Source: a virus (Duplodnaviria; Caudoviricetes). Taken from it: 64,000 bases of DNA. Every line of letters begins with the position of its first letter. Position 1 is the stretch's first letter. Made by a program: the position numbers and the translations under genes. The DNA lies in the IMG/VR virus record IMGVR_UViG_3300043598_000016, positions 64-64,063 of that record, one strand, 5' to 3'. The notes below the pieces were generated by a model. The model had not been told where the DNA came from, did not search any database, and worked only from the letters and a program-made list of their open reading frames with translations. Below, piece after piece: positions 14,637 through 64,000 of this stretch.

Positions 14637-14672
14637 ACCGCCCCGACCACTTACCGAAATTGTGAGGCAACC

Positions 14673-14942
14673 ATGGGCACGTGTCCTTACGGGGTGCACT
14701 CGAACCGTCACGGAAATTGCAGCTGCGGTATGCGCAAAAACAGCGGCTCCACCCGGCGCACCGAGGTACGCCACCAGCGTTCCTATCCGCGCCAGGCGCC
14801 CCGTTCGATGAAGTCGCCGGGGTGCAGCTCGGCCAGCTCCCGGCGGGCCGGCGGGGCCGGTTGCACCGGGATGATCGGCCTGCTCAGCCTGGGTCTGGCG
14901 GTGCTGGTGGCCGGCCTGGTCCGCCTGGGCCGGGGCAGGTAG
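14673..14942 (+). CDS. hypothetical membrane protein
   Basis: N-terminal Cys/His cluster and C-terminal hydrophobic helix; preceded by GCCCCGACCA and GAGG. Confidence 0.55.
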   Translation: MGTCPYGVHSNRHGNCSCGMRKNSGSTRRTEVRHQRSYPRQAPRSMKSPGCSSASSRRAGGAGCTGMIGLLSLGLAVLVAGLVRLGRGR

Positions 14943-14958: not shown

Positions 14959-15492
14959 ATGGGCGAATACTCCGGGCCCTATGAGACCCAGAATCCAAAT
15001 AAGAGTGATGCGGTAATGGATGTTGAGGCCGCGCTCTGTTTCGCCTATGCCCGGGCCAATTACACCGTTCGGGACATAGCGCGAATGACCGGGCTGGACC
15101 CCATGACCGTGTGCCGCCGGCTGGATAGGTTGATCTTGGTACAAAGCCGCCCTAGCCGATCTATCCTGCGGCTGATCGAGGCTGACCGGGTGGACGATAT
15201 GGCCCGCGCGGTGGACCAGGTGCTGTACGGCTCGGGGCGCCCGGACGTGGAGCTGCTGGCCGAGCGGGCGGTGGCCCAGGGACTCACCCCGGTGGACGTG
15301 GCCGCGCTGCTGAGGGTGCAGCTGGCCGCCTCGGCCCGGCGGTCCAGCCTGCTCGGCCTGAACACCCCTGAGTCCGAGCCGGATGATCCGCCCCTGGGGG
15401 ACAGCCCCGAGCCGACCGAGTGGGAGCTCAGCGCCCGCAACCATCGCGATGAGCAGGCCCGACGCATAGAGAAAGGTGAGTTCGATGACTGA
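14959..15492 (+). CDS. HTH protein resembling terminase small subunit (second copy)
   Basis: HTH YTVRDIARMTGLDPMTVCRR and C-terminal RRSSLLGLNTP, resembling the RRAKLLGLDAP motif of HTH-type small terminases; start may be 15017. Confidence 0.62.
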   Translation: MGEYSGPYETQNPNKSDAVMDVEAALCFAYARANYTVRDIARMTGLDPMTVCRRLDRLILVQSRPSRSILRLIEADRVDDMARAVDQVLYGSGRPDVELLAERAVAQGLTPVDVAALLRVQLAASARRSSLLGLNTPESEPDDPPLGDSPEPTEWELSARNHRDEQARRIEKGEFDD

Positions 15493-16099
15493 CTACCCGC
15501 CCGGCGACTGGGACTCTCAGGACTGGCCCGACACCCCGCCCGAGCCGGACACCGCCACTCACCGCGCTGATAAGCCCTGGCCAGGGCCACCCGGCGCACT
15601 GCTGGGCGTGCGCGATGGCGGACCGCCATGCACCCGGGCGCACTGCGGGCACGCGTACACCCGGCACCTGCGCGCCGGCCCGCCGGTACCAGGCGCGGCC
15701 GAGCTGGCGTGCATGTCCCCCGAGTGTGGCTGCCCCGGCTACCAGCCACCGAGCTCGGCGGCCGAGGCGCACCAGGCACTGAAAGACGCTCCACGTCCGG
15801 GCTGGCCACGTACCGGGCGCGTGCCGTTGGCCGATCTGGTGGGCGCGGCGGCCGCCGCAAGCCTGGGCCACCCGGACCGCGCCGAGGAGATAGAGAGCCG
15901 GCTCACCGCCGCGCTCGAGCTGCTGACCCGCTACCGGACCACGCTGCACCACGCCCTCGGGCTGACCCGCCCGGTGCCGGATGAGGAACTGCTCACCTAC
16001 GTAGTGGATGCGATCCGGCACGCCCAGCAGCTGCCGCCGCCGGTGCGCAGCGGTGAGACCACCACGGCGGCCAGCCCAGGGAGTGAGACTGATGTCTGA
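15485..16099 (+). CDS. hypothetical protein (Zn-binding motif plus shared ALG-D-LL module)
   Basis: CxxxxCGH...H...CxxxxCGC; overlaps upstream stop. Confidence 0.65.
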   Translation: MTDYPPGDWDSQDWPDTPPEPDTATHRADKPWPGPPGALLGVRDGGPPCTRAHCGHAYTRHLRAGPPVPGAAELACMSPECGCPGYQPPSSAAEAHQALKDAPRPGWPRTGRVPLADLVGAAAAASLGHPDRAEEIESRLTAALELLTRYRTTLHHALGLTRPVPDEELLTYVVDAIRHAQQLPPPVRSGETTTAASPGSETDV

Positions 16100-16673
16100 G
16101 GATGACCAGCCCACCGCGCCACACACCGCCTGCCGCTGTGGCCAGCCCGAGGCGGCCGGGGTGGTGCACCGCGCGGACGGACCCTGTTACGTGGCGGCCA
16201 GCGTGGCCCGCACGGCGGAGCAGGTGATCCACCACCTGACGAACACCCAGCCCGCCGAGGTCAGTGAAGCGTTCGCCCGGATGTATCCCGAGCTGGCCAA
16301 CGTCATCACCGAGCACCCCGCCGGCCCGGGCCGGGAGACCTTGGCGCGGTTTCGCCGGGAGCTGATCAACGCCCTCGGTGTGCGGCACCGGCCGGCGGAC
16401 ACCGAGCTGCTCCGCCTGGCCACCGAGGTGATCCGGCTGGCCCGGCGCACTGAACCCGGCGCGGTGGACCAGCTGCGGGCCGGCAGCAGAACCCCCCCCG
16501 GCGACTTCCCCTGCTGCTGCCCCGCCCCGACTACTGAGGTGGACCACGACGCGCCCTCGGCCACCACGGTGGGCACCGACTACGCCGCCGAGGTGGCCTA
16601 CCGCACCCAGGTACAGCGCCCGGCGGACGATCCGGACTGGGACATGCCGCCGCACCCCGAGGGTGAGCAGTGA
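16092..16673 (+). CDS. hypothetical protein (shared ALG-D-LL module)
   Basis: ATG 16092 overlaps upstream gene; CRCGQ...H...C motif. Confidence 0.65.
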   Translation: MSEDDQPTAPHTACRCGQPEAAGVVHRADGPCYVAASVARTAEQVIHHLTNTQPAEVSEAFARMYPELANVITEHPAGPGRETLARFRRELINALGVRHRPADTELLRLATEVIRLARRTEPGAVDQLRAGSRTPPGDFPCCCPAPTTEVDHDAPSATTVGTDYAAEVAYRTQVQRPADDPDWDMPPHPEGEQ

Positions 16674-16679
16674 GGGGCG

Positions 16680-16865
16680 GTGATGGCCACGAAATTCACC
16701 GGCGTGCGAGACGGCGTACGCACCGCCGCGACGTGCCCGAGGTGCCGGACGCATCGGCTGTTCACGATGCCGAGCACCGGCGAACGTATGTGCGGGGATC
16801 AGGTGCACTGCCGCTACGTCAGCACGGAGAACCCGGAGCGGGGGGCGGGCCGGTGGTCGAGCTGA
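16680..16865 (+). CDS. small Zn-ribbon protein
   Basis: CPRC...C-x5-C; GAGGGG RBS. Confidence 0.55.
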   Translation: MMATKFTGVRDGVRTAATCPRCRTHRLFTMPSTGERMCGDQVHCRYVSTENPERGAGRWSS

Positions 16866-17383
16866 TCGAGGATGCGGTGATCGCGGTGGCCCACCAGCTG
16901 CACCTGATCTACCGCACGGGCCCCAAGCAGACCGCCGAGGACATAGCGCGCCGCGTGCTGGCCGAGTACGAACGGGTCAAGGCGGCCGCGTTGAGCGCTG
17001 TGCCACTCAGCCGGGCGCCCTGGCGGGTGGGCAACCCGGAGCTGCGGGAGCGCCCGAACGACCTATACGAGGCGGACCGGGCCGGCCGCTGGCGCTACAT
17101 CGGCTCGCTGGCCACCCCGGAACACGCCACCTGGTGCGCGGTGGCCCGGGACATGCTGGCCGGCCAGCGGATAGATGAGGCGTACCGGGTGGCCAGCAGC
17201 TCGGCCGATGCGTTCCGAGCCAGGCTCACCGCCGCCCTTGGGCTGCCCGAGAATCCCGGGGACGCGGTGCTCATAGCCTCGGCCGAGCGGGCCATCCGGA
17301 TCGCCCGGGGGCTGCCCCGGAATGCTGGGCCGCCCGAGCTCGGCCAAGGCAGCCAGGCTGACCATTACCGGGGGGACGGATGA
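16853..17383 (+). CDS. hypothetical protein (shared ALG-D-LL module)
   Basis: GTG 16853 within ORF 16670-17383; high GC3. Confidence 0.6.
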   Translation: MVELIEDAVIAVAHQLHLIYRTGPKQTAEDIARRVLAEYERVKAAALSAVPLSRAPWRVGNPELRERPNDLYEADRAGRWRYIGSLATPEHATWCAVARDMLAGQRIDEAYRVASSSADAFRARLTAALGLPENPGDAVLIASAERAIRIARGLPRNAGPPELGQGSQADHYRGDG

Positions 17384-17481
17384 GCAACGCGGATTGGTGG
17401 CTGCTGGGTACGTGCTTCCTGGGCGCCCTCGGCGTGGTGGCGATGGTGGTGGCCATCTACCTGGCCCGGCGGTCACGATGA
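17380..17481 (+). CDS. 33-aa single-TM microprotein
   Basis: MSNADWWLLGTCFLGALGVVAMVVAIYLARRSR; ATGA overlaps at both ends; not in ORF track. Confidence 0.6.
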   Translation: MSNADWWLLGTCFLGALGVVAMVVAIYLARRSR

Positions 17482-17783
17482 CCCGCCCGGAGTGCCCGGG
17501 GTGCGGGGAGGGGCCAGCGTTCCCGGCGCGCCGGCGGGTGGACTGGGCGCTATGGGTGCACCCCGAGCAGTCCCGGATCTGCCTGGTGCCCACCTGGCCG
17601 GCCTACCGCACGGCGCGGATGACGCTGTGCCATGACTGCACCCGGGGCGCGCTGCTGCAGAGCACCTGTCTGGCCGAGCGGGAGCCCGGCGGCGGGTTCC
17701 GGCTGGTGACCGCCACGGTGGCCAGCTGCTGCCCGCGTTGCCTGGGCCGGTCCTGCCTGCCGGGTTTCGTGATGCCGTCATGA
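17478..17783 (+). CDS. Cys-rich hypothetical protein
   Basis: CPGC, CHDC, CCPRC; ATGA overlaps. Confidence 0.55.
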   Translation: MTRPECPGCGEGPAFPARRRVDWALWVHPEQSRICLVPTWPAYRTARMTLCHDCTRGALLQSTCLAEREPGGGFRLVTATVASCCPRCLGRSCLPGFVMPS

Positions 17784-17899
17784 CCGGCCGGGCGGTAGTG
17801 CTGGCCCTGCTGGCGCTGATCATGGTGTTGCTGCTGGCCGCGCTCTGCTTCGCGGTCTATGCGCTGGTCATCACCGGGGCGGTGACCTGCCAATGGTGA
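17780..17899 (+). CDS. 39-aa TM microprotein
   Basis: MTGRAVVLALLALIMVLLLAALCFAVYALVITGAVTCQW; ATGA overlap. Confidence 0.55.
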   Translation: MTGRAVVLALLALIMVLLLAALCFAVYALVITGAVTCQW

Positions 17900-17982
17900 G
17901 GGCGCTGGTCATGGGTTGGCTGGGTGACGTCGAGTGGCTGACCCTGCTGAGCCTGCTGAGCATCGCCTGGGGGCTGCTGTGA
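17893..17982 (+). CDS. 29-aa hydrophobic microprotein
   Basis: MVRALVMGWLGDVEWLTLLSLLSIAWGLL; fills the gap with overlaps on both sides. Confidence 0.45.
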   Translation: MVRALVMGWLGDVEWLTLLSLLSIAWGLL

Positions 17983-18122
17983 TGATCAGGCGGTGGCCAG
18001 GGTGGTGGGTGCTGGTCATCGTGCTGTTGCTGGCCGCCGCCACCGCGCGCTCCGTCTGGCTGGCCATCGGCGCCGCCACCGTGGCGGTGGTGCTGCTCGA
18101 GCGCCCGAGGTGGCGGCTATGA
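17982..18122 (+). CDS. 46-aa 2-TM microprotein
   Basis: MIRRWPGWWVLVIVLLLAAATARSVWLAIGAATVAVVLLERPRWRL; TGATG coupling. Confidence 0.55.
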   Translation: MIRRWPGWWVLVIVLLLAAATARSVWLAIGAATVAVVLLERPRWRL

Positions 18123-18325
18123 CTGAGCCGCTGTTCGTCCAGGGCACGCTGCCCAGCTCAGGCTCCCGCTTCCGAATGTGGGTGTCACTGCGGTGGGCGG
18201 TGCTCGAGGTCAACGGGCTAGTGACGTTCGTGCCGAGCTCAGCCGGCAGCTGGGACCGTCACCCGCTACCGGCTGAGCTGGTGGCGGATATGGCGGTCGC
18301 ACTCTGGGAAGCGGGCCAGCCATGA
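18119..18325 (+). CDS. hypothetical protein
   Basis: ATGA overlaps with upstream gene and with the terminase-like gene. Confidence 0.55.
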   Translation: MTEPLFVQGTLPSSGSRFRMWVSLRWAVLEVNGLVTFVPSSAGSWDRHPLPAELVADMAVALWEAGQP

Positions 18326-19911
18326 CCCTGCTGCTGCCCGAGGACGAGGTGCTGGCCACCGGCCCGTATGTGCTGGCCGGGCCGGATGACTGGGACGGCA
18401 CCTGGTACCACCGCCAGCTGATGCACTCGGCGGTGGCCAACTTCATGGCCGAGGCGCGCCGGCCCGAGCGACTGCCGGGCCGGCAGTACCGCCGCGACCT
18501 GACCGAACACAACCCGCTGCTGTTCATGTTGATCTATCTGACCAAGCACCTGCGGACCCCTCGGCTGGACGGCGCGATCCACCTGTCACGGTTCCACTTG
18601 GACGCGCTGCACTACTGCCGGCGCTGGGCATTCCAGGGCTGGGGGATCGGCGGGTGCCGGGATGGCTGGATCGCGCCCCGCAAGTCAGGCAAGTCAACGA
18701 TCTTTCTGGTTGGCCTGCTGCTCTGGGCGCTGGCCCACGGGCACCGCCGCTTCGCGCTGGTGATCGCGCACACCGGCACCATGGTGGACAAACACATGCT
18801 CACCCTGCGCGATGAGATCCAGAACAACCCATGGCTGCGGGCCGATTTCCCCGAGCTCTGCACCCCGCTCAAGCGGCGCGGCCGGGCGGTGATGGACAAC
18901 GCGGAGGGCTACATGGCCGAGTCCGGCGCGATGTTCCTGGTGATGGGTTTCGGCCGGGCCGCCCTCGGCATCAAGGTGGGCACCGAGCTGCCGGATCTGA
19001 TCATGGTTGACGATGGTGAGGGGCACGAGGAGCGGTACAGCCTCTACCAGAAATCACAGCGGCTCAAGACGTTGCGCGCGGCCATCCTGCCGATGAACGA
19101 GTACGCGGTGCTGGCCATCATCGGCACCACCACCCGGCACGGCTCGATCATGCACGACGTGGCCCGGGCGGCCGCCTGGGTGCAGGCCGAGGGGATCCGG
19201 GCGCACCATTACCCGGCGATCGAGACGGACCCGGAGACCGGTGAGCGGCGCTCGGCGTGGGCGGCCCGCTGGCCGTTGAGCTGGCTGCTGGACAACGAAC
19301 TGGAAAGATCATTCGCGCTGAACTATCTGTGCGACCCGCTAGCCCCGGGGGAGGGTAGCTACTGGTCCGATGAGATGTTCGTGATGGCCCCGCCGAGCAT
19401 CGCCCGACTGGTCACCAGCCGGGCGCTGAGCATCGATCCCACGGACCTGGCCAACGGCGCGCACAACGACTTCACGGCGCTGGTGCAGGGGGCGTACTCG
19501 GCGCCGTACCGGAAAGCCATTCTCGAGGCGAGCATCAGCGTCAAGCCGACTGAGGATGAACTCAAGTGGCGGGTGCACTCGGCCATCCGCAACAGCCCGC
19601 CGGCCTGCCCGATCACCCGGGTGCTGATCGAGATGAATAAGGGCGGCCCGCTGGTCAAGCAGGTGTGCAGCCCGCTGCCCCGGGTCAACGGGGTGCGGGT
19701 GGAGTGGGTGGAAGTGTGGGCGACTGAGCACAAGCTGAGCCGGCTGGGCCGCGCGGCGGACCGGTTCGAGCGCGGCGAAGTGCTGTTCGGCGATACCCTC
19801 CCGTCGCTGCGCCGCCAACTCAAGGCCGTGCCCAACGGCGACCATGACGATGAGGCGGACGCGGTTTCGCAGTACCTGGACGATGTGCTGCCCGGTGAGT
19901 ACGTCGCCTAG
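18322..19911 (+). CDS. terminase large subunit-like ATPase/nuclease (second, portal-less copy)
   Basis: Walker A APRKSGKST, Walker B PDLIMVDDGE, coupling motif IIGT, RNase H-like nuclease SIDPT...DFTA...IEMNKGG...HDDEADA. Confidence 0.88.
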   Translation: MTLLLPEDEVLATGPYVLAGPDDWDGTWYHRQLMHSAVANFMAEARRPERLPGRQYRRDLTEHNPLLFMLIYLTKHLRTPRLDGAIHLSRFHLDALHYCRRWAFQGWGIGGCRDGWIAPRKSGKSTIFLVGLLLWALAHGHRRFALVIAHTGTMVDKHMLTLRDEIQNNPWLRADFPELCTPLKRRGRAVMDNAEGYMAESGAMFLVMGFGRAALGIKVGTELPDLIMVDDGEGHEERYSLYQKSQRLKTLRAAILPMNEYAVLAIIGTTTRHGSIMHDVARAAAWVQAEGIRAHHYPAIETDPETGERRSAWAARWPLSWLLDNELERSFALNYLCDPLAPGEGSYWSDEMFVMAPPSIARLVTSRALSIDPTDLANGAHNDFTALVQGAYSAPYRKAILEASISVKPTEDELKWRVHSAIRNSPPACPITRVLIEMNKGGPLVKQVCSPLPRVNGVRVEWVEVWATEHKLSRLGRAADRFERGEVLFGDTLPSLRRQLKAVPNGDHDDEADAVSQYLDDVLPGEYVA

Positions 19912-19961: not shown

Positions 19962-19990
19962 TTGTCATCTACTCAAACCTACGGTAGAGT
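19962..19990 (+). promoter_or_regulatory. sigma70/SigA-like promoter
   Basis: TTGTCA-17 bp-TAGAGT in an AT-rich intergenic region upstream of 20041. Confidence 0.7.
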
Positions 19991-20040
19991 GGGAACCGCA
20001 AGAGCTTTGCCCGCCCCGACCAGCCAGGAGCCCGCCCGAC

Positions 20041-21216
20041 ATGACCGCCCCCCGCACCACCGCCCAGTCCGCCGCCGATGAGGCTTACGCCGCTTTCGTT
20101 GCCGGTTGCACGTGCGGCCTGACCGACCACCAGCACACCACCGAGTGCGCCGCGCGCTGGGATGCCGCCGCCGAGGCTGCCGAACTGGCCAACACCGAGG
20201 CGCCGGCTGCCCCGTTCGAGATCGGCCAGCGGGTCCGCTTCACCGCCGAGATCGGCAGCCCCGAGCTGGTGCACGTCACCGGCGAGATCACCGAGGCTGG
20301 CCCCCGCGAGTCCGTGGTCCGCCTGGACACCCGGGTGCCCGGCTACGTCGCCGAGCTGCGTTCGTTCAACATCTACATTGAGCCCATCCCCGAGCTGACC
20401 GCTGTTGAGGCGGTCCGCCTGGTCACCCGCCGCGCGCAGCGGGCCGCGCTGGACCACGCCGAGCCCCTCGGCCCGGTGCCGTGTGCTCACGTGTTTATGC
20501 GCACCATGGGCGCGCTCAGCTGCCAGAAATGCCACGTTGGCGCCTCGGCCACACTCGGCGGAGCTTTCCGCACCTACGCCCAGCAGTGGGCCGAGGCGGA
20601 CCGCCGCACCGAGCTGGCCGCCACCGATCCCACGCTGTCCGCCTACGCCATGCGCCTGGTGCAGGCCGCCGAATACCGGGCCGAGCTGCGCGCCTACGGG
20701 GTGCCGGTGGCCCAGCTGGTTTACCCGTTCGCCATCGGCCCGGACCCGGAGTACCTCGGCCACCCGGACCGCGCCGAGTACCGCGCCGCCTGGGAGCAGG
20801 CCGGGCGACTGACCGGCGCCGCCGAGTACGCCGCCGCGCTGCGCGCCCTGGCCGACATCGTGGAGGCCACCCCCGAGGTGCACCGCTACAACGACTTTTT
20901 CGTCTGGTACGGGGAGAGCCGGGAGGATCTGGCCGCGCTGGCCCGGGCCGCGCTGGCCGCCGGCGCCACGGTGGCCAAGGACGTGGAGGCGGACAGCTAT
21001 AACCTTGAGCTGCGCCTGGGCCCGCTCAAGCTGATGGCGCTGGCCAACCGCTCGGCGGTGTGCGAGCGGGTGGTGCTCGGCACCGATGAGGTGACCGAGA
21101 TGGTGCCGGACCCGGAGTACGTGGCGCCCGAGCTGCCGGCGGCGCCCCTGGTCCAGGTCACCCGCACGGTGGACCGGGTGGAGTGGCGCTGCACCCCGCT
21201 GCTGGCCGAGAGCTAG
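20041..21216 (+). CDS. hypothetical early protein
   Basis: 391 aa, AGGAG RBS, strong GC3; C-terminal VCERVV.GT...VEWRC.PLL pattern familiar from actinophage hypotheticals. Confidence 0.75.
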   Translation: MTAPRTTAQSAADEAYAAFVAGCTCGLTDHQHTTECAARWDAAAEAAELANTEAPAAPFEIGQRVRFTAEIGSPELVHVTGEITEAGPRESVVRLDTRVPGYVAELRSFNIYIEPIPELTAVEAVRLVTRRAQRAALDHAEPLGPVPCAHVFMRTMGALSCQKCHVGASATLGGAFRTYAQQWAEADRRTELAATDPTLSAYAMRLVQAAEYRAELRAYGVPVAQLVYPFAIGPDPEYLGHPDRAEYRAAWEQAGRLTGAAEYAAALRALADIVEATPEVHRYNDFFVWYGESREDLAALARAALAAGATVAKDVEADSYNLELRLGPLKLMALANRSAVCERVVLGTDEVTEMVPDPEYVAPELPAAPLVQVTRTVDRVEWRCTPLLAES

Positions 21217-58782: not shown

Positions 58783-59814
58783 TCACACGATGTAGCCGAA
58801 CCGGCCGAGCTGGCGCAGCGTCTCTTCACGGGTCCAGCCCTCAACCTCGGCCTGGGCCATGATCTCGTCCGGCAGCAGCCGGGGAGCCTTGGCGTAGCGC
58901 AGCGACTTGGCCCCCGAGGGGCGCCGCTCGAGCTGCCCGCGCGGCCGCTTGCGCAGCGTGCCGTCCGGCTGCACCTCATAGCCGCCGTACCAGCCGCGCA
59001 CCGAGGTGCCCGAGGTGGTGGCCCGCACGTCCCGGCCGAACGAGGAGACCACCTGGACCCCGCTGTACGCGTTGACCGTCTGGCTGATGTCCGCGCCGGC
59101 CCGGATCGCGGCGGCGGCCCCGCCGAACAGCGCGTCCTGCTGGGCCGGCGCCAACCGGTTGAAATACGCCCGGGGGTCGGTGGTCCAGTCGCCGGGCGCA
59201 TCCTCGGCGGACGGGATCATGTAGCAGTCACATTGCGGATGGCGCTTGAAAGCCGAGCGGCGGTAGTGCCGCCCGGCCAGCACGGCGCACCGGGCGCAAC
59301 TGGTCCCGCGCAGCGCCCGCACGTAGCTCTTGGCCGAGCTCCGGGCGAACATGCCCACCCCGATGGCCGAGCGGGCCATATCCCGCACGCCCTCGGACAC
59401 GATCGCGCCGGCCACGTAGCGCGCCCGGCTGGCCGCCAGGTTGCCGCCGGCGCCGGCCGAGGTGGCATCCCGGTAGGCACTCGGCGGCGCATAGACCAGG
59501 TTGCGCAGCCAGCTGCCGCCCCCGTCCGTCTGGTCCACAAACGTCTCGGTGGCCACCCGGGCATCGGCGGCGGTGTCCGCGCCCTGGGCGGCCAGCACAT
59601 CGTCCAAGTACGGATCCGCCTGCTGTACCCCGGCCCGCTGCAGCTCGAGCAGGGTCGGGCCGGCGTCCACCACGGCGGCCCGCCACCGGTCCGGGTTCCC
59701 GCCGGCCAGCGCGCCGCTCTGCTGGTCGATCTGCTCCACCGCGTAGGCGGTCAGCAGCTCGAGATCGTTCGAGTAGCCGGCAGCCACGTCAACGACGGCG
59801 GCCGGCGGTGGCAC
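58783..59814 (-). CDS. minor head / capsid maturation protein
   Basis: CARCAVLAG...F.RHPQCDC, GADISQ.VNA, RL.P.EI; follows portal. Confidence 0.8.
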   Translation of the reverse strand: MPPPAAVVDVAAGYSNDLELLTAYAVEQIDQQSGALAGGNPDRWRAAVVDAGPTLLELQRAGVQQADPYLDDVLAAQGADTAADARVATETFVDQTDGGGSWLRNLVYAPPSAYRDATSAGAGGNLAASRARYVAGAIVSEGVRDMARSAIGVGMFARSSAKSYVRALRGTSCARCAVLAGRHYRRSAFKRHPQCDCYMIPSAEDAPGDWTTDPRAYFNRLAPAQQDALFGGAAAAIRAGADISQTVNAYSGVQVVSSFGRDVRATTSGTSVRGWYGGYEVQPDGTLRKRPRGQLERRPSGAKSLRYAKAPRLLPDEIMAQAEVEGWTREETLRQLGRFGYIV

Positions 59815-61321
59815 CGTTCCTCCGGGCGTTGGTGGGCGGCCCAGCCGGCGGCCCGGCCGGCGGCGGCTGCTGGCCGGCGGGAGCAGGCTCGCCCGGGGCC
59901 GGGATCCCGGCGCCGCCGGCGGCCCCGTTGAGGTTCTTGAGCCCGGCCAAGATGTTGCTGGTCCGGGCCCCGTCGCTGCCCATCCGGTCCTTCATCAGGG
60001 CCCGCTGCGCCGGGGTGTACCCGCAATCCTCCTGGGCCTGCTCGGTGTCGATGATGCCGGCCTGCACCAGCTTGACGGCGCGGTCCGCGATGGCCGAGGC
60101 GGTGGGCGTGCTGGGGTCGCGCCAGACAGTTTCCATCCGGTTGCCCTCGGCCGGGTCGCGGCCCATCATCGCCAGCGCGATGCGCATGGCCCGCTCCCAG
60201 GTGCCGCCCTTGCCCCGCTGGTGTCGCTCGGCCCGCTTCACCAGCCGCGCCTCGCTCGAGCGGATGGCGTCCGCCGAGGCCGGGTTCTCACTCGAGTAGC
60301 CGAGGTAGTGCGGCGGTAGCCCGTACTTGGACGCGGCCAGGGTGGCGATCTGTTTGATCACCGCGATGTAGTTGTTCAGGTCGCTGGCGGTGAACTGCCC
60401 GATCTGCGGGCGGTCGCCTTCCCCGGCCGCGATGCGGCGGCCGTCCTCGTCCACCGGCGGCGGCACCGCCCACAGGTAGCCGGCGGCAACCTGCCACGCC
60501 TTGAGCTGGTGGCCGGCCTCATCGGTGAACATGGCCGGGTCCAGGTTGATCGCCCACCGGCGGGGCAGCGCGTGGTGTTCCACCCCGGCGAGCATGTTGG
60601 TGGCGGTCTGATTGACCGCGTCCACCAGCGGGATGATGTCGGCCAGCTCAGAGTGGCCCAGGCCGCGCCGGGACCGGGTGAGCATCGGCACCACCGGCAC
60701 CAGCGGGGAGGTCTGGTGCGCCTCGAGTGTCTTGGACCAGCCGTCCTTGGTTTTCTCCACCACCTTGGGGCCCTTGGCGCCGTGCTGGTAGGTGATCGAG
60801 CGCCCGGGGAGGTAGAGCTGGGCCATGTCCTCGGCGGTCAGCGCGTCGTCGGACTTCCACACCTTGAGCGCGGAGATCACCCGCCGCGATCCGGGATCCA
60901 CCTCCACCGCCACCTGGTCCGAGTACTCGACCGTGACCAGCGGGATATCGGTGTCCGAGGGGCCCAGCATCACGTAGGACTGACCGCACACCATGGAGGC
61001 CACGTGCGCCTCGCCGGAATTTTCGTCCAGGTCATTGTCCTGCCAGACGTGGCTGAGGTCCTCGTCCACCTCGTCCGCGCCGGCCAGGCGGAAACCCTCC
61101 ACGTCCAGCCGCTCTTCCACCGAGGCCACGATCAGCTCGGACCAATTCACCCGCAGCGGCGGGAACCGGTCTCCCTGCTCGAGCAGGATCCGGGCCACGT
61201 AGGCCAGCGGCTGCTCATTGTCGTAGTACGCCCAGAGATCGGCGTGGTCCTGCTGCTGCTTGCGCCGCTTGCGCTGCAGCCGCTCGAGCCATTGATCGTC
61301 AGTCTGGTCCAGCAGGGCCAC
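59789..61321 (-). CDS. portal protein (SPP1 gp6-like)
   Basis: NW..L.V....ERL.V.GF, G.SE, NPASADAIR..E.RL, WE..MR. Confidence 0.92.
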   Translation of the reverse strand: MALLDQTDDQWLERLQRKRRKQQQDHADLWAYYDNEQPLAYVARILLEQGDRFPPLRVNWSELIVASVEERLDVEGFRLAGADEVDEDLSHVWQDNDLDENSGEAHVASMVCGQSYVMLGPSDTDIPLVTVEYSDQVAVEVDPGSRRVISALKVWKSDDALTAEDMAQLYLPGRSITYQHGAKGPKVVEKTKDGWSKTLEAHQTSPLVPVVPMLTRSRRGLGHSELADIIPLVDAVNQTATNMLAGVEHHALPRRWAINLDPAMFTDEAGHQLKAWQVAAGYLWAVPPPVDEDGRRIAAGEGDRPQIGQFTASDLNNYIAVIKQIATLAASKYGLPPHYLGYSSENPASADAIRSSEARLVKRAERHQRGKGGTWERAMRIALAMMGRDPAEGNRMETVWRDPSTPTASAIADRAVKLVQAGIIDTEQAQEDCGYTPAQRALMKDRMGSDGARTSNILAGLKNLNGAAGGAGIPAPGEPAPAGQQPPPAGPPAGPPTNARRNGATAGRRR

Positions 61322-61342
61322 GCGCTCACCACCTCTCTCGGG

Positions 61343-63043
61343 TCAATTCATCACCACCACGCGCCGGCGGCTCGGCTCCCGGCCCTGCCCAGCCGCCACC
61401 GCGTCGCAGCGCGCCTCATGGGCCAGCGCGGCGCACATGGCCATATCAATCTTTTGATGTTCGGTCGGTTTGCCGAGGATGTAGCGCTCCCCCGGCCGGG
61501 CCAGCTTCCGGGCGTTGCCGACATGCCGAGCGGTCACCGGGTCGGGATCCGTGGTCAGCGCGCCGGTGCTCAGATCGGTGACGAACCGGACCAGGCAGTC
61601 ATGCATGGCGGTGATCCGGTTGGTGGGCCACTCAAAAACGATCTTGCCACCGTAGGCCAGCGCCCAGCCCTCGATCTCGGTGGCCCAGTCGCGCGGATCG
61701 GCGTAGAGCCGCACCACCCGGTAGCGGCGCATCAACTCGTCCAGCGCGGCGGCCACCTCGGTGCGGGGGATCCGGCCGCCGTGCTGTTTCGGATCCCAGA
61801 TCGTGGGCAGCCGATCCGGGCCGTAGGTGGGTGTGAACCCGTAGCCGTCCATCGTCTCGGCCCGGAACCCGGTCCAGTCCTCCGACTCGGACCCGTCGAA
61901 CCCGAGCGCGATCCGGGCCCGGTCCGGCACCTCACGGGTGACCTGGCGGCTCTCCCACAGCCCATCGGGCAGCCAGCTGCCGATACCCGCCTTGGGCCGG
62001 TTACCGAAAAAGCGCTCGGCCTGCACCGGATCGGTGGCCACCAGCTCGGCCGCCTCGGCCTCGATCGCGTCCAGGTCGATGTGCCCGCCGCGTTCGCGGA
62101 GGCTCGAGCCGTAGACATAGCGGTGGATGCGCCTTCGCTCCCGGCGGTCTCCGTAGCTGAGGTTGGCCGGCGCCATCGGGTGGTAGCGGAACACGTCCCG
62201 GCCGCGCTGCAGCTCGGCCCGCTGCTCGGGCTCCACGGTGTGCGGATCCCAGGCCGAGGCGGACTCGGCGGTGCGCTGGGCCACGCTGTCCTGGGTGGGA
62301 TCCCATCCGTTGGTGGTCTCCTCGGCTCGGCCGCCCATCCCGGCCAGGCCACGGCGCTGGGTAGTGGCCAGCGTGTGCATGCCGTTGGCCTTGGTCCAGA
62401 TCCCCACCTCGTCCTGGGGGGCGAACGTGAGCGGGTTACCGAGCCGGGACTGGGCCGAGCTGGCCACCGCGTCAATCCGGCCGCCACCGGGCAGCCGGAT
62501 GAACTCCTCGGCCACCCGGGGCATCACGTCGAACAGCGGCCCGTAGCGGATCATCGGGCGCAGCCAGCCGAACACGTTGTCCGTGCTGTCCTCGCTGTAC
62601 CCGGTGACCTGGATCAGCGGGGTCGGCCAGGGCATGCCCATGGCTTCACCGGGCTGGTAGTCATACGCCCAGTCGCACGGGCAGCCGTGGTCGCTGCAGG
62701 CGTAGCCGTCACCGCGCTGGGCCCAGCCGGCGAACAGCGCCGGGCCGGCGCCCTCGAGACAGCAATGCGCGGCGGTGTGCGGCCCCTTGCCGGCTTTCTG
62801 GGGTAGCACGATCTGAGCTCGGCGGTAGAAAAACGCGGGGCCCAGCACCGGATTGTCCGGAATCCACTCGGCGGTCTGCTTCACCCGGTAGAAATTGGCC
62901 AGACACCACGCTTGCCAGGCCAGCAGGGTGAACGGCTGGCCGCGCCGGAACCCGTCCGGGATCACGCAGTGCGCCTCCACCCAGTCAAGCGCGACATAGA
63001 GGGTGGGCCAGTCGACCAGGAACCCGGACTCGGGTGACTTCAC
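61343..63043 (-). CDS. terL: terminase large subunit (canonical copy)
   Basis: PQKAGKGP, QDE, TTN, GFDGS and KID motifs; directly upstream of portal. Confidence 0.92.
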   Translation of the reverse strand: MKSPESGFLVDWPTLYVALDWVEAHCVIPDGFRRGQPFTLLAWQAWCLANFYRVKQTAEWIPDNPVLGPAFFYRRAQIVLPQKAGKGPHTAAHCCLEGAGPALFAGWAQRGDGYACSDHGCPCDWAYDYQPGEAMGMPWPTPLIQVTGYSEDSTDNVFGWLRPMIRYGPLFDVMPRVAEEFIRLPGGGRIDAVASSAQSRLGNPLTFAPQDEVGIWTKANGMHTLATTQRRGLAGMGGRAEETTNGWDPTQDSVAQRTAESASAWDPHTVEPEQRAELQRGRDVFRYHPMAPANLSYGDRRERRRIHRYVYGSSLRERGGHIDLDAIEAEAAELVATDPVQAERFFGNRPKAGIGSWLPDGLWESRQVTREVPDRARIALGFDGSESEDWTGFRAETMDGYGFTPTYGPDRLPTIWDPKQHGGRIPRTEVAAALDELMRRYRVVRLYADPRDWATEIEGWALAYGGKIVFEWPTNRITAMHDCLVRFVTDLSTGALTTDPDPVTARHVGNARKLARPGERYILGKPTEHQKIDMAMCAALAHEARCDAVAAGQGREPSRRRVVVMN

Positions 63044-63534
63044 TCGCCCGGATCATCCTCGGGCGGCTCGGGCACGATCTCGAATCGCTCCCGGGCGCCG
63101 CGCCGCCGAGCCCGGGCCGCGTCGGTGCCGGTGGCGGCCAGCGGCTTGGCCGCCTCGCCGATCTTCCACCGGTGCATCCGTAGGCCGGGCATGGTGATGC
63201 CGAGCGAATCGGCCAGCTGGCGCCACGCGGTGCGCACGTTCACCGGCGCGCCGGGTTGCTCCGCCTCGGTGAATACCCGGACGTACTGGCCCACCTCATC
63301 GGCCAGGCCGAGGCGTTCCCACATGAGCGCCTGCGGTTTGCGCCAGAGTCGGGCCCAGAGCTCCCGTTCCCGGCGGGTGGCTTTCGGATCGAGGGGCCAA
63401 TCCGGCAGTGGGCGGCCCACCCGGCCCTCAGCCGGCAGTGTCACCCATTCACCGCCCTGGCCATTGGCCGAGCGGATGGAGTTCGGATCCGGCTTGCTTC
63501 CGGCGCCTGGCCGGGCCCCGCCGTGAGTAGGCAT
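63040..63534 (-). CDS. terS: terminase small subunit
   Basis: GGARPGAG..PDP, WPL, W..PQA..W, LG.T..G; overlaps terL start. Confidence 0.85.
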   Translation of the reverse strand: MPTHGGARPGAGSKPDPNSIRSANGQGGEWVTLPAEGRVGRPLPDWPLDPKATRRERELWARLWRKPQALMWERLGLADEVGQYVRVFTEAEQPGAPVNVRTAWRQLADSLGITMPGLRMHRWKIGEAAKPLAATGTDAARARRRGARERFEIVPEPPEDDPGE

Positions 63535-63615: not shown

Positions 63616-63990
63616 TTAGAGATGGCTGGCCCTATTCCAGCTGAACCAATGCCTATTCCCGCCGGACGCTACTATTCTGGTCTCCATTATCCGGCGTTCC
63701 TTGATGCAGAACCGGTCCGGGTCCAGCCCCCACCGGTCAGCATCCCACTCGGTGGCCCGCAGCAGCACGTCCACCAGCCGGTCCAGGTGCTCGTCCAGCT
63801 GGGCCGGCGTGGCCCCCAAGTTGATCAACCGTCTGAGCTGGTCAGCGAACTGGGTCACGGTCTCTGGGTGGCACCCCATGGCATCCCCCCGGCGTTTCCG
63901 CTGGTCAAAGGCTTGTGGCTGATCACTCGGCGCTGAGCCGGCCGGTTTCCGTGATTTTTTACTGGGTGTTCTTGAAGTCGCCGCACCCAC
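63616..63990 (-). CDS. hypothetical protein upstream of terS
   Basis: 124-aa ORF; probable start at MGCHP; the 3' part runs through an AT-rich repeat region. Confidence 0.4.
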   Translation of the reverse strand: MGAATSRTPSKKSRKPAGSAPSDQPQAFDQRKRRGDAMGCHPETVTQFADQLRRLINLGATPAQLDEHLDRLVDVLLRATEWDADRWGLDPDRFCIKERRIMETRIVASGGNRHWFSWNRASHL

Positions 63991-64000
63991 GAACGCCCTT

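What the first reader, a model, noticed from the sequence alone, without database searches (positions are those of the whole stretch)
14959..19911. Second, portal-less terminase pair bracketing a coupled operon in the accessory arm
Seen: besides the canonical terS-terL-portal block (59789-63534, minus strand), 18322-19911 (+) encodes a 529-aa protein with a full large-terminase motif set (APRKSGKST, PDLIMVDDGE, IIGT, SIDPT, DFTA, IEMNKGG, HDDEADA). Its motif style is clearly different from the first TerL. 14959-15492 encodes an HTH protein with a small-terminase-like C-terminus (RRSSLLGLNTP). Ten small genes lie between them, nearly all linked by stop/start overlaps. No portal or capsid gene follows; the next element is a new promoter. 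Known: tailed phages normally carry one TerL next to the portal, and TerL is a ligand sensed by Avs (AVAST) STAND defence NTPases. Inference: an intact orphan terminase could be a decoy or inhibitor of terminase-sensing immunity, a dominant-negative or nucleolytic weapon against competing phages or satellites, a concatemer-processing enzyme, or an alternative packaging mode.
Basis: partly seen in the sequence, partly recalled or inferred. Interest (0 to 1): 0.88.

Follow-up and report, generated by a model that had tools for sequence, protein, structure and literature searches.

The report
Portal-less second terminase module in phages
This soil phage carries, besides its normal DNA-packaging genes, a second intact terminase enzyme with its own DNA-binding partner but no portal, and the same extra module recurs in many unrelated actinobacterial phages, which points to an undescribed job for a packaging enzyme.

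Summary
18322-19911(+) encodes an intact large terminase (TerL2): PHROG phrog_38 E 1e-44, AF2 model pLDDT 87 whose best PDB matches are terminases, and all ATPase and nuclease residues kept. It is not an assembly artefact. A second, collinear 56-kb viral contig (G001; the scan noted the same thing there, e1-6311267) has both terminases, and three short contigs keep TerL2 in the same neighbourhood.

TerL2 evolves under the same constraint as the packaging TerL (dN/dS 0.25 vs 0.24). The HTH protein at 14959-15492 is a remote homologue (hhalign 90.8%, E 1e-6) of HTH proteins that sit upstream of related terminases.

The feature is much wider than this window. 23 portal-less TerLs lie outside a 100%-supported clade of 57 portal-linked TerLs, so the label needs one change on the tree. 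They keep their catalytic residues but mostly lack the basic C-terminal tail. They sit in non-structural arms of phages, and 12 of 13 records examined also carry an ordinary TerL, of two PHROG groups; portals beside it, identified in 7 records, are of three families.

Best reading: a portal-independent, TerS-guided ATP-dependent nuclease/translocase. Its target (rival phages or satellites, or the phage's own replicating DNA) is inferred, not shown. No member was found in 50,697 deposited phage records.

The parts
14641..14649 (+). Copy of the recurrent CCCCGACCA start-associated motif that heads the gene string
   Evidence: 15 copies in the window against 1.6 expected. None lies between 14650 and 20013.
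14673..14942 (+). Small ORF (89 aa), first gene of the string
   Evidence: High-GC3 frame. 46% identical copy in G001. No Pfam hit.
14959..15492 (+). HTH protein (177 aa), the TerS-type partner of TerL2
   Evidence: PF13384 HTH_23 E 5e-6. phrog_645 E 0.0028. hhalign against Zuko-gp6-like HTH proteins upstream of portal-linked TerLs: 90.8%, E 1.2e-6. 68% identical in G001, dN/dS 0.28. A homologue lies directly upstream of the TerL2-like gene in G013. AF2 model pLDDT 85, all-helical.
15485..18325 (+). Seven small ORFs between the HTH gene and TerL2: about 15485-16099, 16092-16673, 16670-17383, 17394-17783, 17780-17899, 17934-18122 and 18119-18325
   Evidence: GC3 frame plot and nearest-start analysis. 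Weakly conserved in G001 (37-47% identity, dN/dS 0.7-1.1). No family hits. The start codons are inferred.
18322..19911 (+). TerL2: intact portal-less large terminase homologue (ATPase plus RNase H-like nuclease)
   Evidence: phrog_38 E 1e-44. AF2 and Foldseek match terminases. K124, D230, D231, E233, D372, D383, D509, D510 and D513 are invariant. dN/dS 0.24-0.35. Only 16 residues follow the last catalytic motif, against 23-37 in portal-linked relatives.
19962..20022 (+). Promoter-like site (19962-19990) and the next CCCCGACCA copy (20014-20022), which end the unit
   Evidence: These are consensus matches only.
20041..21216 (+). 391-aa ORF downstream of TerL2; not a portal, and a variable neighbour
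   Evidence: No PHROG hit, and only a weak sub-threshold Pfam hit. The Atlas model is poor (pLDDT 0.53) and its neighbours are not portals. No hit to my portal profile. 60-70% identical in G001 with dN/dS 0.55. No match in L005.
59789..63534 (-). Canonical packaging block, for comparison: candidate terS 63040-63534, TerL1 61343-63043, portal 59789-61321
   Evidence: TerL1 phrog_19179 E 4e-145 and phrog_9; portal phrog_104 E 1.5e-119 and PF05133. The terS call rests on position only; it has no family hit.

Best explanation
TerL2 and the upstream HTH protein form a two-gene, terminase-derived module that works away from the phage's own portal.

Shown:
- TerL2 belongs to a distinct, old branch of the phrog_38 terminase family.
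- Members of this branch are never next to a portal.
- They keep every ATPase and nuclease catalytic residue and mostly lack the basic C-terminal tail of their portal-linked relatives.
- They sit in the non-structural arm of phages that already have a complete, unrelated TerL-portal-capsid block.

Inferred mechanism: the HTH (TerS-type) protein binds a specific DNA site and recruits TerL2. TerL2 then cuts, and perhaps translocates along, that DNA in the cytoplasm early in infection.

Inferred target: most likely foreign concatemers, meaning co-infecting phages or satellites that use the sister, portal-linked terminase type. The next most likely target is the phage's own replicating DNA.
For: Real and conserved:
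- G001 is collinear with the window along its length and has TerL1 (80%), TerL2 (78%) and the HTH protein (68%).
- L004, L005 and L006 keep TerL2 with the same neighbours.
- dN/dS between window and G001: TerL2 0.25, TerL1 0.24, portal 0.17, capsid 0.43, tape measure 0.47, HTH 0.28.

Fold and chemistry:
- AF2 pLDDT 87.3; the top PDB matches are terminases.
- In 23 portal-less TerLs: K124 23/23, D230 23/23, D231 22/23, E233 22/23, D372 23/23, D383 23/23, E437 21/23, and D509, D510 and D513 each 23/23.

Separate branch:
- In an 84-row tree the 57 portal-linked TerLs form one clade (SH-aLRT 100) and all 23 portal-less ones lie outside it.
- The label needs one change on the tree. 0 of 500 shuffles were as low; the shuffled mean was 20.

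Tail:
- 56 of 57 portal-linked TerLs have 23-37 residues after the last catalytic motif, often basic.
- 21 of 23 portal-less ones have 12-21.
- In P22, deleting the basic C-terminal tail of the large terminase abolishes portal binding, as reported earlier for T3 and lambda (PMC5290284, passages read).

Independence from the resident head:
- 12 of 13 records with a portal-less TerL also have a canonical TerL, of phrog_9/19179 or phrog_2.
- The portal beside the canonical TerL was identified in 7 of these records and belongs to different families. Five were named by PHROG scans of the portal gene: phrog_104 in the window and G014, phrog_12 in G013 and G017, phrog_2662 in G015. G001's portal is an 87% homologue of the window's and G012's matched my SPP1-type portal profile.

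Partner:
- An A4/A5-family HTH lies within 5 kb upstream on the same strand in 14 of 20 portal-less and 36 of 44 portal-linked loci.
- BLAST clustering adds five more portal-less loci.
- It abuts or overlaps TerL in 6 portal-less and 10 portal-linked loci.
- The annotated TerS of phage Isperia hits both HTH profiles (E 1.8e-5 and 1.6e-4).
Against: - No activity, target site or expression timing is known. The 'early' timing is inferred from position and strand only.
- The TerS identity of the HTH protein is not proven. Foldseek and VIA-align found only generic HTH and helical-hairpin matches.
- PHROG labels its family 'Rnase E'. Sigma-r4 and Mor-like Pfam hits allow a transcription-factor reading.
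- Two of 23 portal-less TerLs have long tails (27 and 35 residues). Five of the eight members of the window's own sub-clade still end in an aromatic EY[VAT] motif, so some docking role is not excluded.
- Portal absence rests on an SPP1-type portal profile plus PHROG scans of 10 downstream ORFs from 10 of the 21 portal-less sources.
- The 84-row tree is a quick LG+G4 tree with long branches among the portal-less rows. Whether they are basal or merely fast-evolving is open.
- The window's record is rated 74% complete.
Confidence: 0.6

Rival explanations
1. Alternative packaging initiator. TerS2 and TerL2 work at the phage's own portal and give a second packaging mode, for example a different cut site, headful packaging of host DNA, or packaging under some conditions.
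For: - Both domains are intact.
- The window's portal is a distant relative (22-25% identity, E 1e-13 to 1e-15) of the SPP1-type portals that partner the sister clade.
- Five of eight members of the window sub-clade retain a terminal aromatic EY[VAT] motif like the ...SYV/AYV ends of portal-linked TerLs.
Against: - The same TerL branch occurs with resident portals of three PHROG families and canonical TerLs of two groups.
- The basic C-terminal tail is missing in 21 of 23.
- The gene lies in the non-structural arm, usually on the strand opposite the head genes.
Confidence: 0.13
2. The HTH protein is a transcription regulator, not a TerS. TerL2 acts alone, or with another partner, as a non-specific nuclease or translocase, for example in host-DNA breakdown or resolution of branched replication intermediates.
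For: - Members of the HTH family hit Sigma70_r4 (4 of 7), Mor (3 of 7) and KorA (3 of 7).
- Structure searches give only DeoR/SorC-type HTH and helical hairpins.
- In the window the HTH gene is 2.8 kb from TerL2.
- TerL2 lies about 5 kb from the replication genes, and in L109 a pol/primase-like gene follows it.
Against: - The HTH gene is the only gene consistently linked to this TerL family across portal-linked and portal-less loci. It often abuts or overlaps TerL, which fits a stoichiometric partner.
- The annotated TerS of Isperia belongs to the same family.
Confidence: 0.15
3. Immune decoy or inhibitor. The orphan TerL titrates or blocks terminase-sensing Avs-type defence proteins.
For: The only evidence is that TerL is a known Avs ligand. 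The best structural match happens to be a TerL solved in complex with Avs3 (8dgc_E). That match reflects fold, not function.
Against: - A decoy needs neither a conserved TerS-like partner nor fully conserved ATPase and nuclease catalytic residues across a deep clade.
- From general knowledge (recalled): binding of TerL activates rather than blocks Avs, so an extra TerL would more likely raise detection.
Confidence: 0.04
4. Inert leftover or artefact: a remnant of a captured phage or satellite packaging module, or a chimeric assembly.
For: - TerL2's nearest named relatives include satellite terminases.
- The record is a metagenome contig rated 74% complete.
Against: - A collinear second genome from another record exists.
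- Depth is even, 13-16x, across 12-23 kb in re-assembled contigs of the source sample.
- dN/dS is 0.25, equal to TerL1.
- All catalytic residues are kept in 23 divergent members.
- The branch is separated from all 57 portal-linked TerLs, so it is not a recent capture.
Confidence: 0.03

Closest known systems
Canonical large terminases of actinophages and Streptomyces satellites (Zuko, Dryad, Isperia, MiniFlayer, Mulchroom; PHROG phrog_38)
   Same: Same protein family and fold, same Walker A/B, coupling and nuclease motifs, 30-37% identity. An HTH gene of the same family lies upstream.
   Different: In those genomes the TerL is at the left genome end and is followed by a portal. Those TerLs carry a 23-37-residue, often basic, C-terminal tail. 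TerL2 has neither feature, lies outside their clade, and coexists with another, unrelated TerL.
Satellite packaging redirection (SaPI/PICI TerS, capsid-forming PICIs, MiniFlayer-type satellites)
   Same: A terminase component is encoded apart from the head genes it may act on, and packaging specificity is a field of conflict between elements. This rests on general knowledge, the abstract of PMC10690885 (search listing) and annotated records.
   Different: Here the extra module sits inside a complete phage with its own full head, tail and replication genes, not in a satellite. No integrase, capsid or terminal repeat belongs to it.
Capsid-less terminase islands of CPR bacteria, noted earlier in this scan (e1-849605, e1-1100872, e1-798577)
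   Same: A TerS-like plus TerL pair kept without portal or capsid genes and under selection, according to those AI notes, which I did not test.
   Different: Those are chromosomal integrating islands with recombinases and methylases in Patescibacteria. This module is part of lytic-type actinophage genomes and belongs to a different TerL clade.

Membership tests
Large terminase subunit (TerL) | N-terminal ASCE ATPase with Walker A lysine, Walker B acidic pair plus catalytic Glu, and coupling motif | tested here: met
   APRKSGKST (K124), LIMVDDGE (D230, D231, E233) and IGTT (268-270) are present. They are invariant in a 21-sequence alignment and conserved in 22-23 of 23 portal-less members.
Large terminase subunit (TerL) | C-terminal RNase H-like nuclease with conserved acidic residues | tested here: met
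   D372, D383, D509, D510 and D513 are each 23/23; E437 is 21/23.
Large terminase subunit (TerL) | Two-domain fold like solved terminases | tested here: met
   AF2 model pLDDT 87.3. Foldseek PDB: 8dgc_E 1.3e-17, T4 gp17 1.9e-12, HK97 1.2e-11, D6E 9.5e-11. A sequence profile against PDB found nothing.
Large terminase subunit (TerL) | Encoded beside the portal and head genes it serves | tested here: not met
   No portal lies within about 4.5 kb downstream in the window, in G001 or in 19 further portal-less sources (21 in all). The only portal in the window is 40 kb away, beside TerL1.
Large terminase subunit (TerL) | C-terminal tail that docks on the portal (shown for P22, T3 and lambda: PMC5290284) | tested here: not met
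   16 residues follow the last catalytic motif, with no basic stretch. 56 of 57 portal-linked relatives have 23-37. That this tail docks on the portal in this particular family is inferred from other phages.
Large terminase subunit (TerL) | Packages DNA into procapsids | not testable with these tools
   Needs biochemistry or genetics.
Small terminase subunit (TerS) | N-terminal HTH DNA-binding domain | tested here: met
   PF13384 HTH_23, E 5.2e-6 above the cutoff. Model helices 17-61 match DeoR/SorC HTH domains at Z 7-8.
Small terminase subunit (TerS) | Encoded upstream of, and co-oriented with, its TerL | tested here: met
   The HTH gene is on the same strand as TerL2 in a gene string with no internal motif copy. 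Family members lie upstream of TerL in 14 of 20 portal-less and 36 of 44 portal-linked loci.
Small terminase subunit (TerS) | Homology to proteins established or annotated as TerS | tested here: inconclusive
   - hhalign to the Zuko-gp6-like family: 90.8%.
- The annotated TerS of Isperia hits the family profiles (E 1.8e-5 and 1.6e-4).
- Only 2 + 2 of 24 relatives hit TerS PHROGs, and the main PHROG (phrog_645) is labelled 'Rnase E'.
- No BLAST similarity to the MiniFlayer or Mulchroom TerS.
Small terminase subunit (TerS) | Ring-forming oligomerisation core and TerL-binding C-terminus | tested here: inconclusive
   The model has a long helical hairpin (67-131) and a conserved C-terminal helix (154-172). 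No solved TerS appeared among the fold matches.
Phage satellite (PICI, cf-PICI, MiniFlayer type) | Small separate element that lacks replication or tail genes and depends on a helper | tested here: not met
   The module lies inside a 64-kb genome with its own polymerase-primase, helicase, head, tail and lysis genes. It is conserved in place in G001.

The most novel reading that the evidence does not exclude
Actinophages carry a domesticated terminase pair as a weapon. The TerS-like protein recognises the packaging site of rival phages or satellites that use the sister terminase type. The tail-less TerL2 cuts or futilely translocates their concatemers away from any capsid. This would be a packaging enzyme turned into a sequence-guided anti-virus nuclease, encoded by a virus.
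Probability: 0.3. Interest if true: 0.9.

Novelty: new variant of a known kind. Interest (0 to 1): 0.74.

Why it matters
Large terminases are treated as single-copy hallmark genes of tailed phages. They are used for phage detection, classification and prediction of packaging strategy.

A deep, catalytically intact branch that is never linked to a portal and always accompanies another terminase has two consequences:
- Terminase-based inference can be misled in these genomes.
- The ATPase-nuclease plus its DNA-recognition partner has probably been recruited for a job other than filling the phage's own capsids.

If that job is inter-virus conflict or replication-intermediate processing, it adds a new class to phage-encoded nucleases and to the helper-satellite arms race in Streptomyces-type hosts.

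The family is defined well enough here to be cloned and tested: the two genes, the tail difference and 23 members.

Tried and rejected
- **Close DNA relatives:** megablast of 14-22 kb against deposited phages found nothing.
- **Sequence profile of TerL2 against PDB:** no hit; the fold search was needed.
- **The search for related loci:** with the single TerL2 protein in viral contigs it found nothing, and with the A1 alignment in species genomes it found nothing. Alignment queries in viral and metagenome contigs worked.
- **HTH protein against the phage collection by tblastn:** no match.
- **HTH protein against the MiniFlayer and Mulchroom TerS:** no similarity.
- **HTH fold searches:** no solved TerS appeared among the Foldseek or VIA-align matches. 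This is told here only; membership is left inconclusive.
- **Complex prediction of TerL2 with the HTH protein:** verdict 'no answer', scores 0.00 and 0.02. This is no evidence either way.
- **The look-up of sequencing runs:** no RNA holder was listed; both holders are DNA runs of one soil sample that may be the source. Expression is therefore untested, and the even depth is not independent of the assembly.
- **Repeat search around the module for a pac-like array:** only weak coding-sequence repeats.
- **Raw tblastx of the window against G002:** uninformative noise, replaced by per-gene tblastn.
- **G002 as a 'relative without TerL2':** rejected as a comparison. It shares only 6 of 57 tested window proteins, all from the head module and tape measure.
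- **Contigs with TerL1 relatives at 52-65% identity:** 0 of 10 had a TerL2 match. These are mostly fragments or mosaics, so this says little.
- **G018 (57% complete):** no canonical TerL found with three queries.
- **The short C-terminal tail as unique to the window's clade:** rejected. It is shared by the whole portal-less branch.
- **Literature:** searches for a described second, orphan or paralogous terminase listed only incidental mentions. I read listings and abstract starts, not the papers, so 'not described' rests on these three searches. One review (PMC13595911) was searched for terms on portal docking and gave nothing usable.

Full report
**What the window is.** The window is all but the first 63 bases of a 64,063-base IMG/VR virus record, classed linear, with a CheckV completeness estimate of 74%. 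It is about 70% G+C and has no tRNA genes.

Its layout:
- Replication genes run on the minus strand from 1 to 13 kb. They include a 1635-aa primase-helicase-PolA fusion and a helicase.
- A plus-strand block of mostly small unknown genes runs from about 13.6 to 32 kb.
- Late genes run on the minus strand from 63.5 down to 32 kb: candidate terS, TerL1 (phrog_19179 and phrog_9), portal (phrog_104; PF05133), protease, major capsid protein, tape measure and minor tail proteins.

The nearest deposited phages share only about 51% identity in TerL1 (Arthrobacter, Gordonia and Streptomyces phages). The two public runs that hold the DNA are soil metagenomes from one sample.

**The observation.** 18322-19911(+) encodes a 529-aa protein.
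- It has no Pfam hit but matches phrog_38 'terminase large subunit' at E 9.6e-45.
- It is 30-37% identical to annotated large terminases of Microbacterium phages (Isperia, OscarSo), of Streptomyces phages (Dryad, Yara, Zuko, KimJongPhill), and of the Streptomyces satellites MiniFlayer and Mulchroom.
- An AlphaFold2 model built on 21 homologues has mean pLDDT 87.3.
- Its best Foldseek matches in the PDB are all large terminases: PhiV-1 TerL in 8dgc at 1.3e-17, then T4 gp17, HK97, D6E, Sf6 and T7.
- Walker A (K124, T126), Walker B plus catalytic Glu (D230, D231, E233) and the nuclease acids (D372, D383, D509, D510, D513) are invariant across those 21 sequences.
- A TerL2 query finds only itself in the record, so the two terminases are not detectable paralogues.

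**The gene string.** GC3 frame analysis gives this order:
- a copy of the motif CCCCGACCA (14641-14649);
- an 89-aa ORF;
- the 177-aa HTH gene;
- seven small ORFs;
- TerL2.

Six of the nine junctions are 4-8-nt overlaps, if the start nearest the previous stop is used. The motif occurs 15 times in the window against 1.6 expected, and none lies between 14650 and 20013. After the TerL2 stop come a promoter-like site (19962-19990) and the next motif copy (20014). Otherwise the description stands.

**Not an artefact.** A 56,250-base viral contig from another record (G001) is collinear with the window from 5.8 kb to the right end, at 66-82% nucleotide identity.
- It encodes TerL1 (80%), portal (87%), TerL2 (78%), the HTH protein (68%) and most other genes in the same order.
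- Three short metagenome contigs (L004 75%, L005 70%, L006 79% partial) have TerL2 with the same upstream small genes. In L005 the same genes also follow further downstream.
- Four further close proteins (55-85% identity) exist in the large protein collection.
- Logan contigs of the source sample cover 12-23 kb at an even 13-16x with no foreign junction at the module borders. This comes from the same sample, so it is not independent.
- The right ends of the window's record and of G001 coincide to within a few bases, which suggests a physical genome end next to terS.

**Selection.** Nei-Gojobori dN/dS values between the window and G001:

| Gene | dN/dS |
|---|---|
| TerL2 | 0.25 (0.24-0.35 over six pairs among four genomes) |
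| TerL1 | 0.24 |
| portal | 0.17 |
| protease | 0.30 |
| capsid | 0.43 |
| tape measure | 0.47 |
| HTH protein | 0.28 |
| downstream 391-aa ORF | 0.55 |
| two intervening small ORFs tested (15476-16099, 17322-17783) | 0.7-1.1 |

TerL2 and the HTH protein are therefore as constrained as core virion genes. The genes between them are not.

**No portal.** In every deposited relative that I opened, the TerL is at the left end and a portal follows: MiniFlayer, Mulchroom, Dryad, Isperia and Zuko.
- tblastn with those five portals finds a portal just downstream of the TerL in the 32-39% relatives from metagenomes and viral contigs.
- In the window and G001 it finds only the canonical portal, at 22-25% identity.
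- The 391-aa ORF after TerL2 has no PHROG hit and only a weak sub-threshold Pfam hit.
- Its Atlas model is poor and has no portal neighbours, and it is not matched in L005.

**The HTH protein.** Word-based search finds only lineage-specific homologues. An exhaustive profile search finds 25 proteins of 110-178 aa, most with the same layout.
- A family of HTH proteins typified by Zuko gp6 lies upstream of portal-linked TerLs. All seven members I aligned hit phrog_645, and the window's protein hits the same PHROG weakly (E 0.0028).
- A profile-profile comparison of the two families gives 90.8% probability and E 1.2e-6 over 108 columns. It runs from the HTH to the shared RR..LLGLD.P motif.
- With HMMs of both families, a member lies within 5 kb upstream on the same strand in 36 of 44 portal-linked and 14 of 20 portal-less loci that have at least 1.5 kb upstream. 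It abuts or overlaps TerL in 10 and 6 of them.
- BLAST clustering of neighbours adds five more portal-less loci. No other gene family is consistently linked.
- In the complete genome G013 the homologue (38% identical over 71 aligned residues; A5 profile score 182) sits directly upstream of the TerL2-like gene.
- The protein that SEA-PHAGES annotators call the small terminase in Isperia hits both HMMs.
- Against this, fold searches of an AF2 model (pLDDT 85.3) return only DeoR/SorC-type HTH domains and generic helical hairpins. Several family members also hit sigma-r4, Mor or KorA models.

I therefore call it TerS-type by synteny and remote homology. It is not a proven TerS.

**The wider family.** Following homologues with short C-termini (alignment A6) gave 22 loci in actinobacterial genomes and MAGs and 80 of 170 viral-contig hits.
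- Many are ordinary TerL-portal pairs.
- There are 21 portal-less sources with at least 2 kb downstream: the window, G001 and 19 further sources. None has a portal by tblastn or by a profile built from 57 portals.
- Their downstream genes are small or on the other strand.
- Ten of the largest downstream ORFs gave no portal hit in PHROGs. Three are tail proteins on the opposite strand, one is polymerase/primase-like and six have no hit.

I then looked for a canonical terminase elsewhere in 13 such records.
- It is present in 12. The window, G001, G012, G013, G014, G016, G017, G019, G021 and G022 have one of the phrog_9/19179 type. G015 and G020 have one of the phrog_2 type.
- G018, rated 57% complete, gave none.
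- A portal beside the canonical TerL was identified in seven records. PHROG scans of the portal gene named it in five: phrog_104 in the window and G014, phrog_12 in G013 and G017, phrog_2662 in G015. G001's portal is an 87% homologue of the window's. G012's portal matched my SPP1-type portal profile.
- G013, G015 and G021 are rated 100% complete. G013 and G021 have terminal repeats.

**Tree and sequence features.**
- In a first tree of 42 rows, the window's sub-clade (8 rows) is monophyletic (SH-aLRT 100) on a long stem of 0.96.
- In an 84-row tree (23 portal-less, 57 portal-linked, 4 distant outgroups), the 57 portal-linked TerLs form one clade with support 100 and all portal-less ones lie outside it.
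- The label needs a single change on that tree. 0 of 500 shuffles were as low.
- I left out duplicates of the same record, fragments, rows with too little downstream sequence and ORFs under 430 aa.
- The method was quick LG+G4, and several portal-less rows have long branches. The root, and hence which state is ancestral, is therefore open.
- Across the 23 portal-less proteins the catalytic positions are kept in 21-23 of 23.
- After the last catalytic motif, 56 of 57 portal-linked proteins have 23-37 residues, typically a basic stretch ending in an aromatic motif.
- 21 of 23 portal-less proteins have 12-21 residues. The exceptions have 27 and 35.
- For P22, removal of the basic C-terminal tail of the large terminase abolishes binding to the procapsid portal, as reported before for T3 and lambda (PMC5290284, passages read).

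**Interpretation.** These points are shown:
- The branch of the terminase family is intact, constrained and ancient.
- It comes with a co-inherited HTH partner.
- It is always unlinked from portals and mostly lacks the tail.
- It is carried in non-structural arms of phages whose own packaging modules are complete and of differing families.

Inferred: it does not serve the resident portal. It acts instead as a TerS-guided, ATP-dependent nuclease/translocase on free DNA.

The target is not known. My estimates are:
- rival phages or satellites that use the sister terminase type, about 0.3;
- the phage's own replicating DNA, about 0.2-0.25;
- a second packaging mode, about 0.13;
- an HTH-independent nuclease role, about 0.15;
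- an Avs decoy, about 0.04;
- inert remnant or artefact, about 0.03.

**Novelty.** Four tblastn searches with divergent members against 50,697 deposited phage records returned only left-end, portal-linked terminases at 37% identity or less. Three full-text searches found no description of such a family; I saw listings only.

I rate it a new variant of a known kind. The enzyme family is known. The portal-less, partner-bearing branch and its context appear to be undescribed.

Noticed in passing
window 13187-53779 (15 sites): CCCCGACCA occurs 15 times against 1.6 expected, mostly just upstream of gene starts in the 13-31 kb plus-strand block and on the minus strand elsewhere. It frames the TerL2 gene string (14641 and 20014). 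It looks like a phage-specific promoter or start-associated element.
   Followed up: partly
G000 record bases 1-200 (L083), just left of the window: The left end of the record is an abruptly AT-rich stretch with repeated GATCAA/GATCTT units next to G-runs. It could be an origin or an end-recognition region.
   Followed up: no
window 63659-64000 and the G001 right end: The two independent contigs stop within a few bases of the same position, about 470 bases beyond the candidate terS. This suggests a true physical genome end (cos or terminal repeat boundary).
   Followed up: partly
window 20432-20817: One run of the source sample holds a contig that skips 241 and 108 bases inside the 391-aa ORF. 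Depth is higher (16-21x against 13x) over 18.6-20.4 kb. This is consistent with a co-occurring G001-like strain that shares TerL2.
   Followed up: partly
window 15485-17383: Three neighbouring small genes share a C-terminal module: orf16670 matches two places in G001, and another first-reader note says the same. They evolve fast (dN/dS about 0.7).
   Followed up: no
G019:C1:450-2177: The canonical phrog_9 terminase of this related record has one in-frame TGA. This could be a frameshift, a split terminase as in the Arthrobacter phages, or a sequencing error.
   Followed up: no
L097 and L101: Actinophage-type TerL-portal loci sit on contigs binned as Gemmatimonadaceae and Variovorax MAGs. This is probably a binning error or a wider host range.
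   Followed up: no
L099 (Streptomyces fragilis NBRC 12862 contig): A chromosomal locus encodes a portal 69% identical to that of the satellite Mulchroom next to a related TerL. It is possibly an integrated Mulchroom-like satellite.
   Followed up: no
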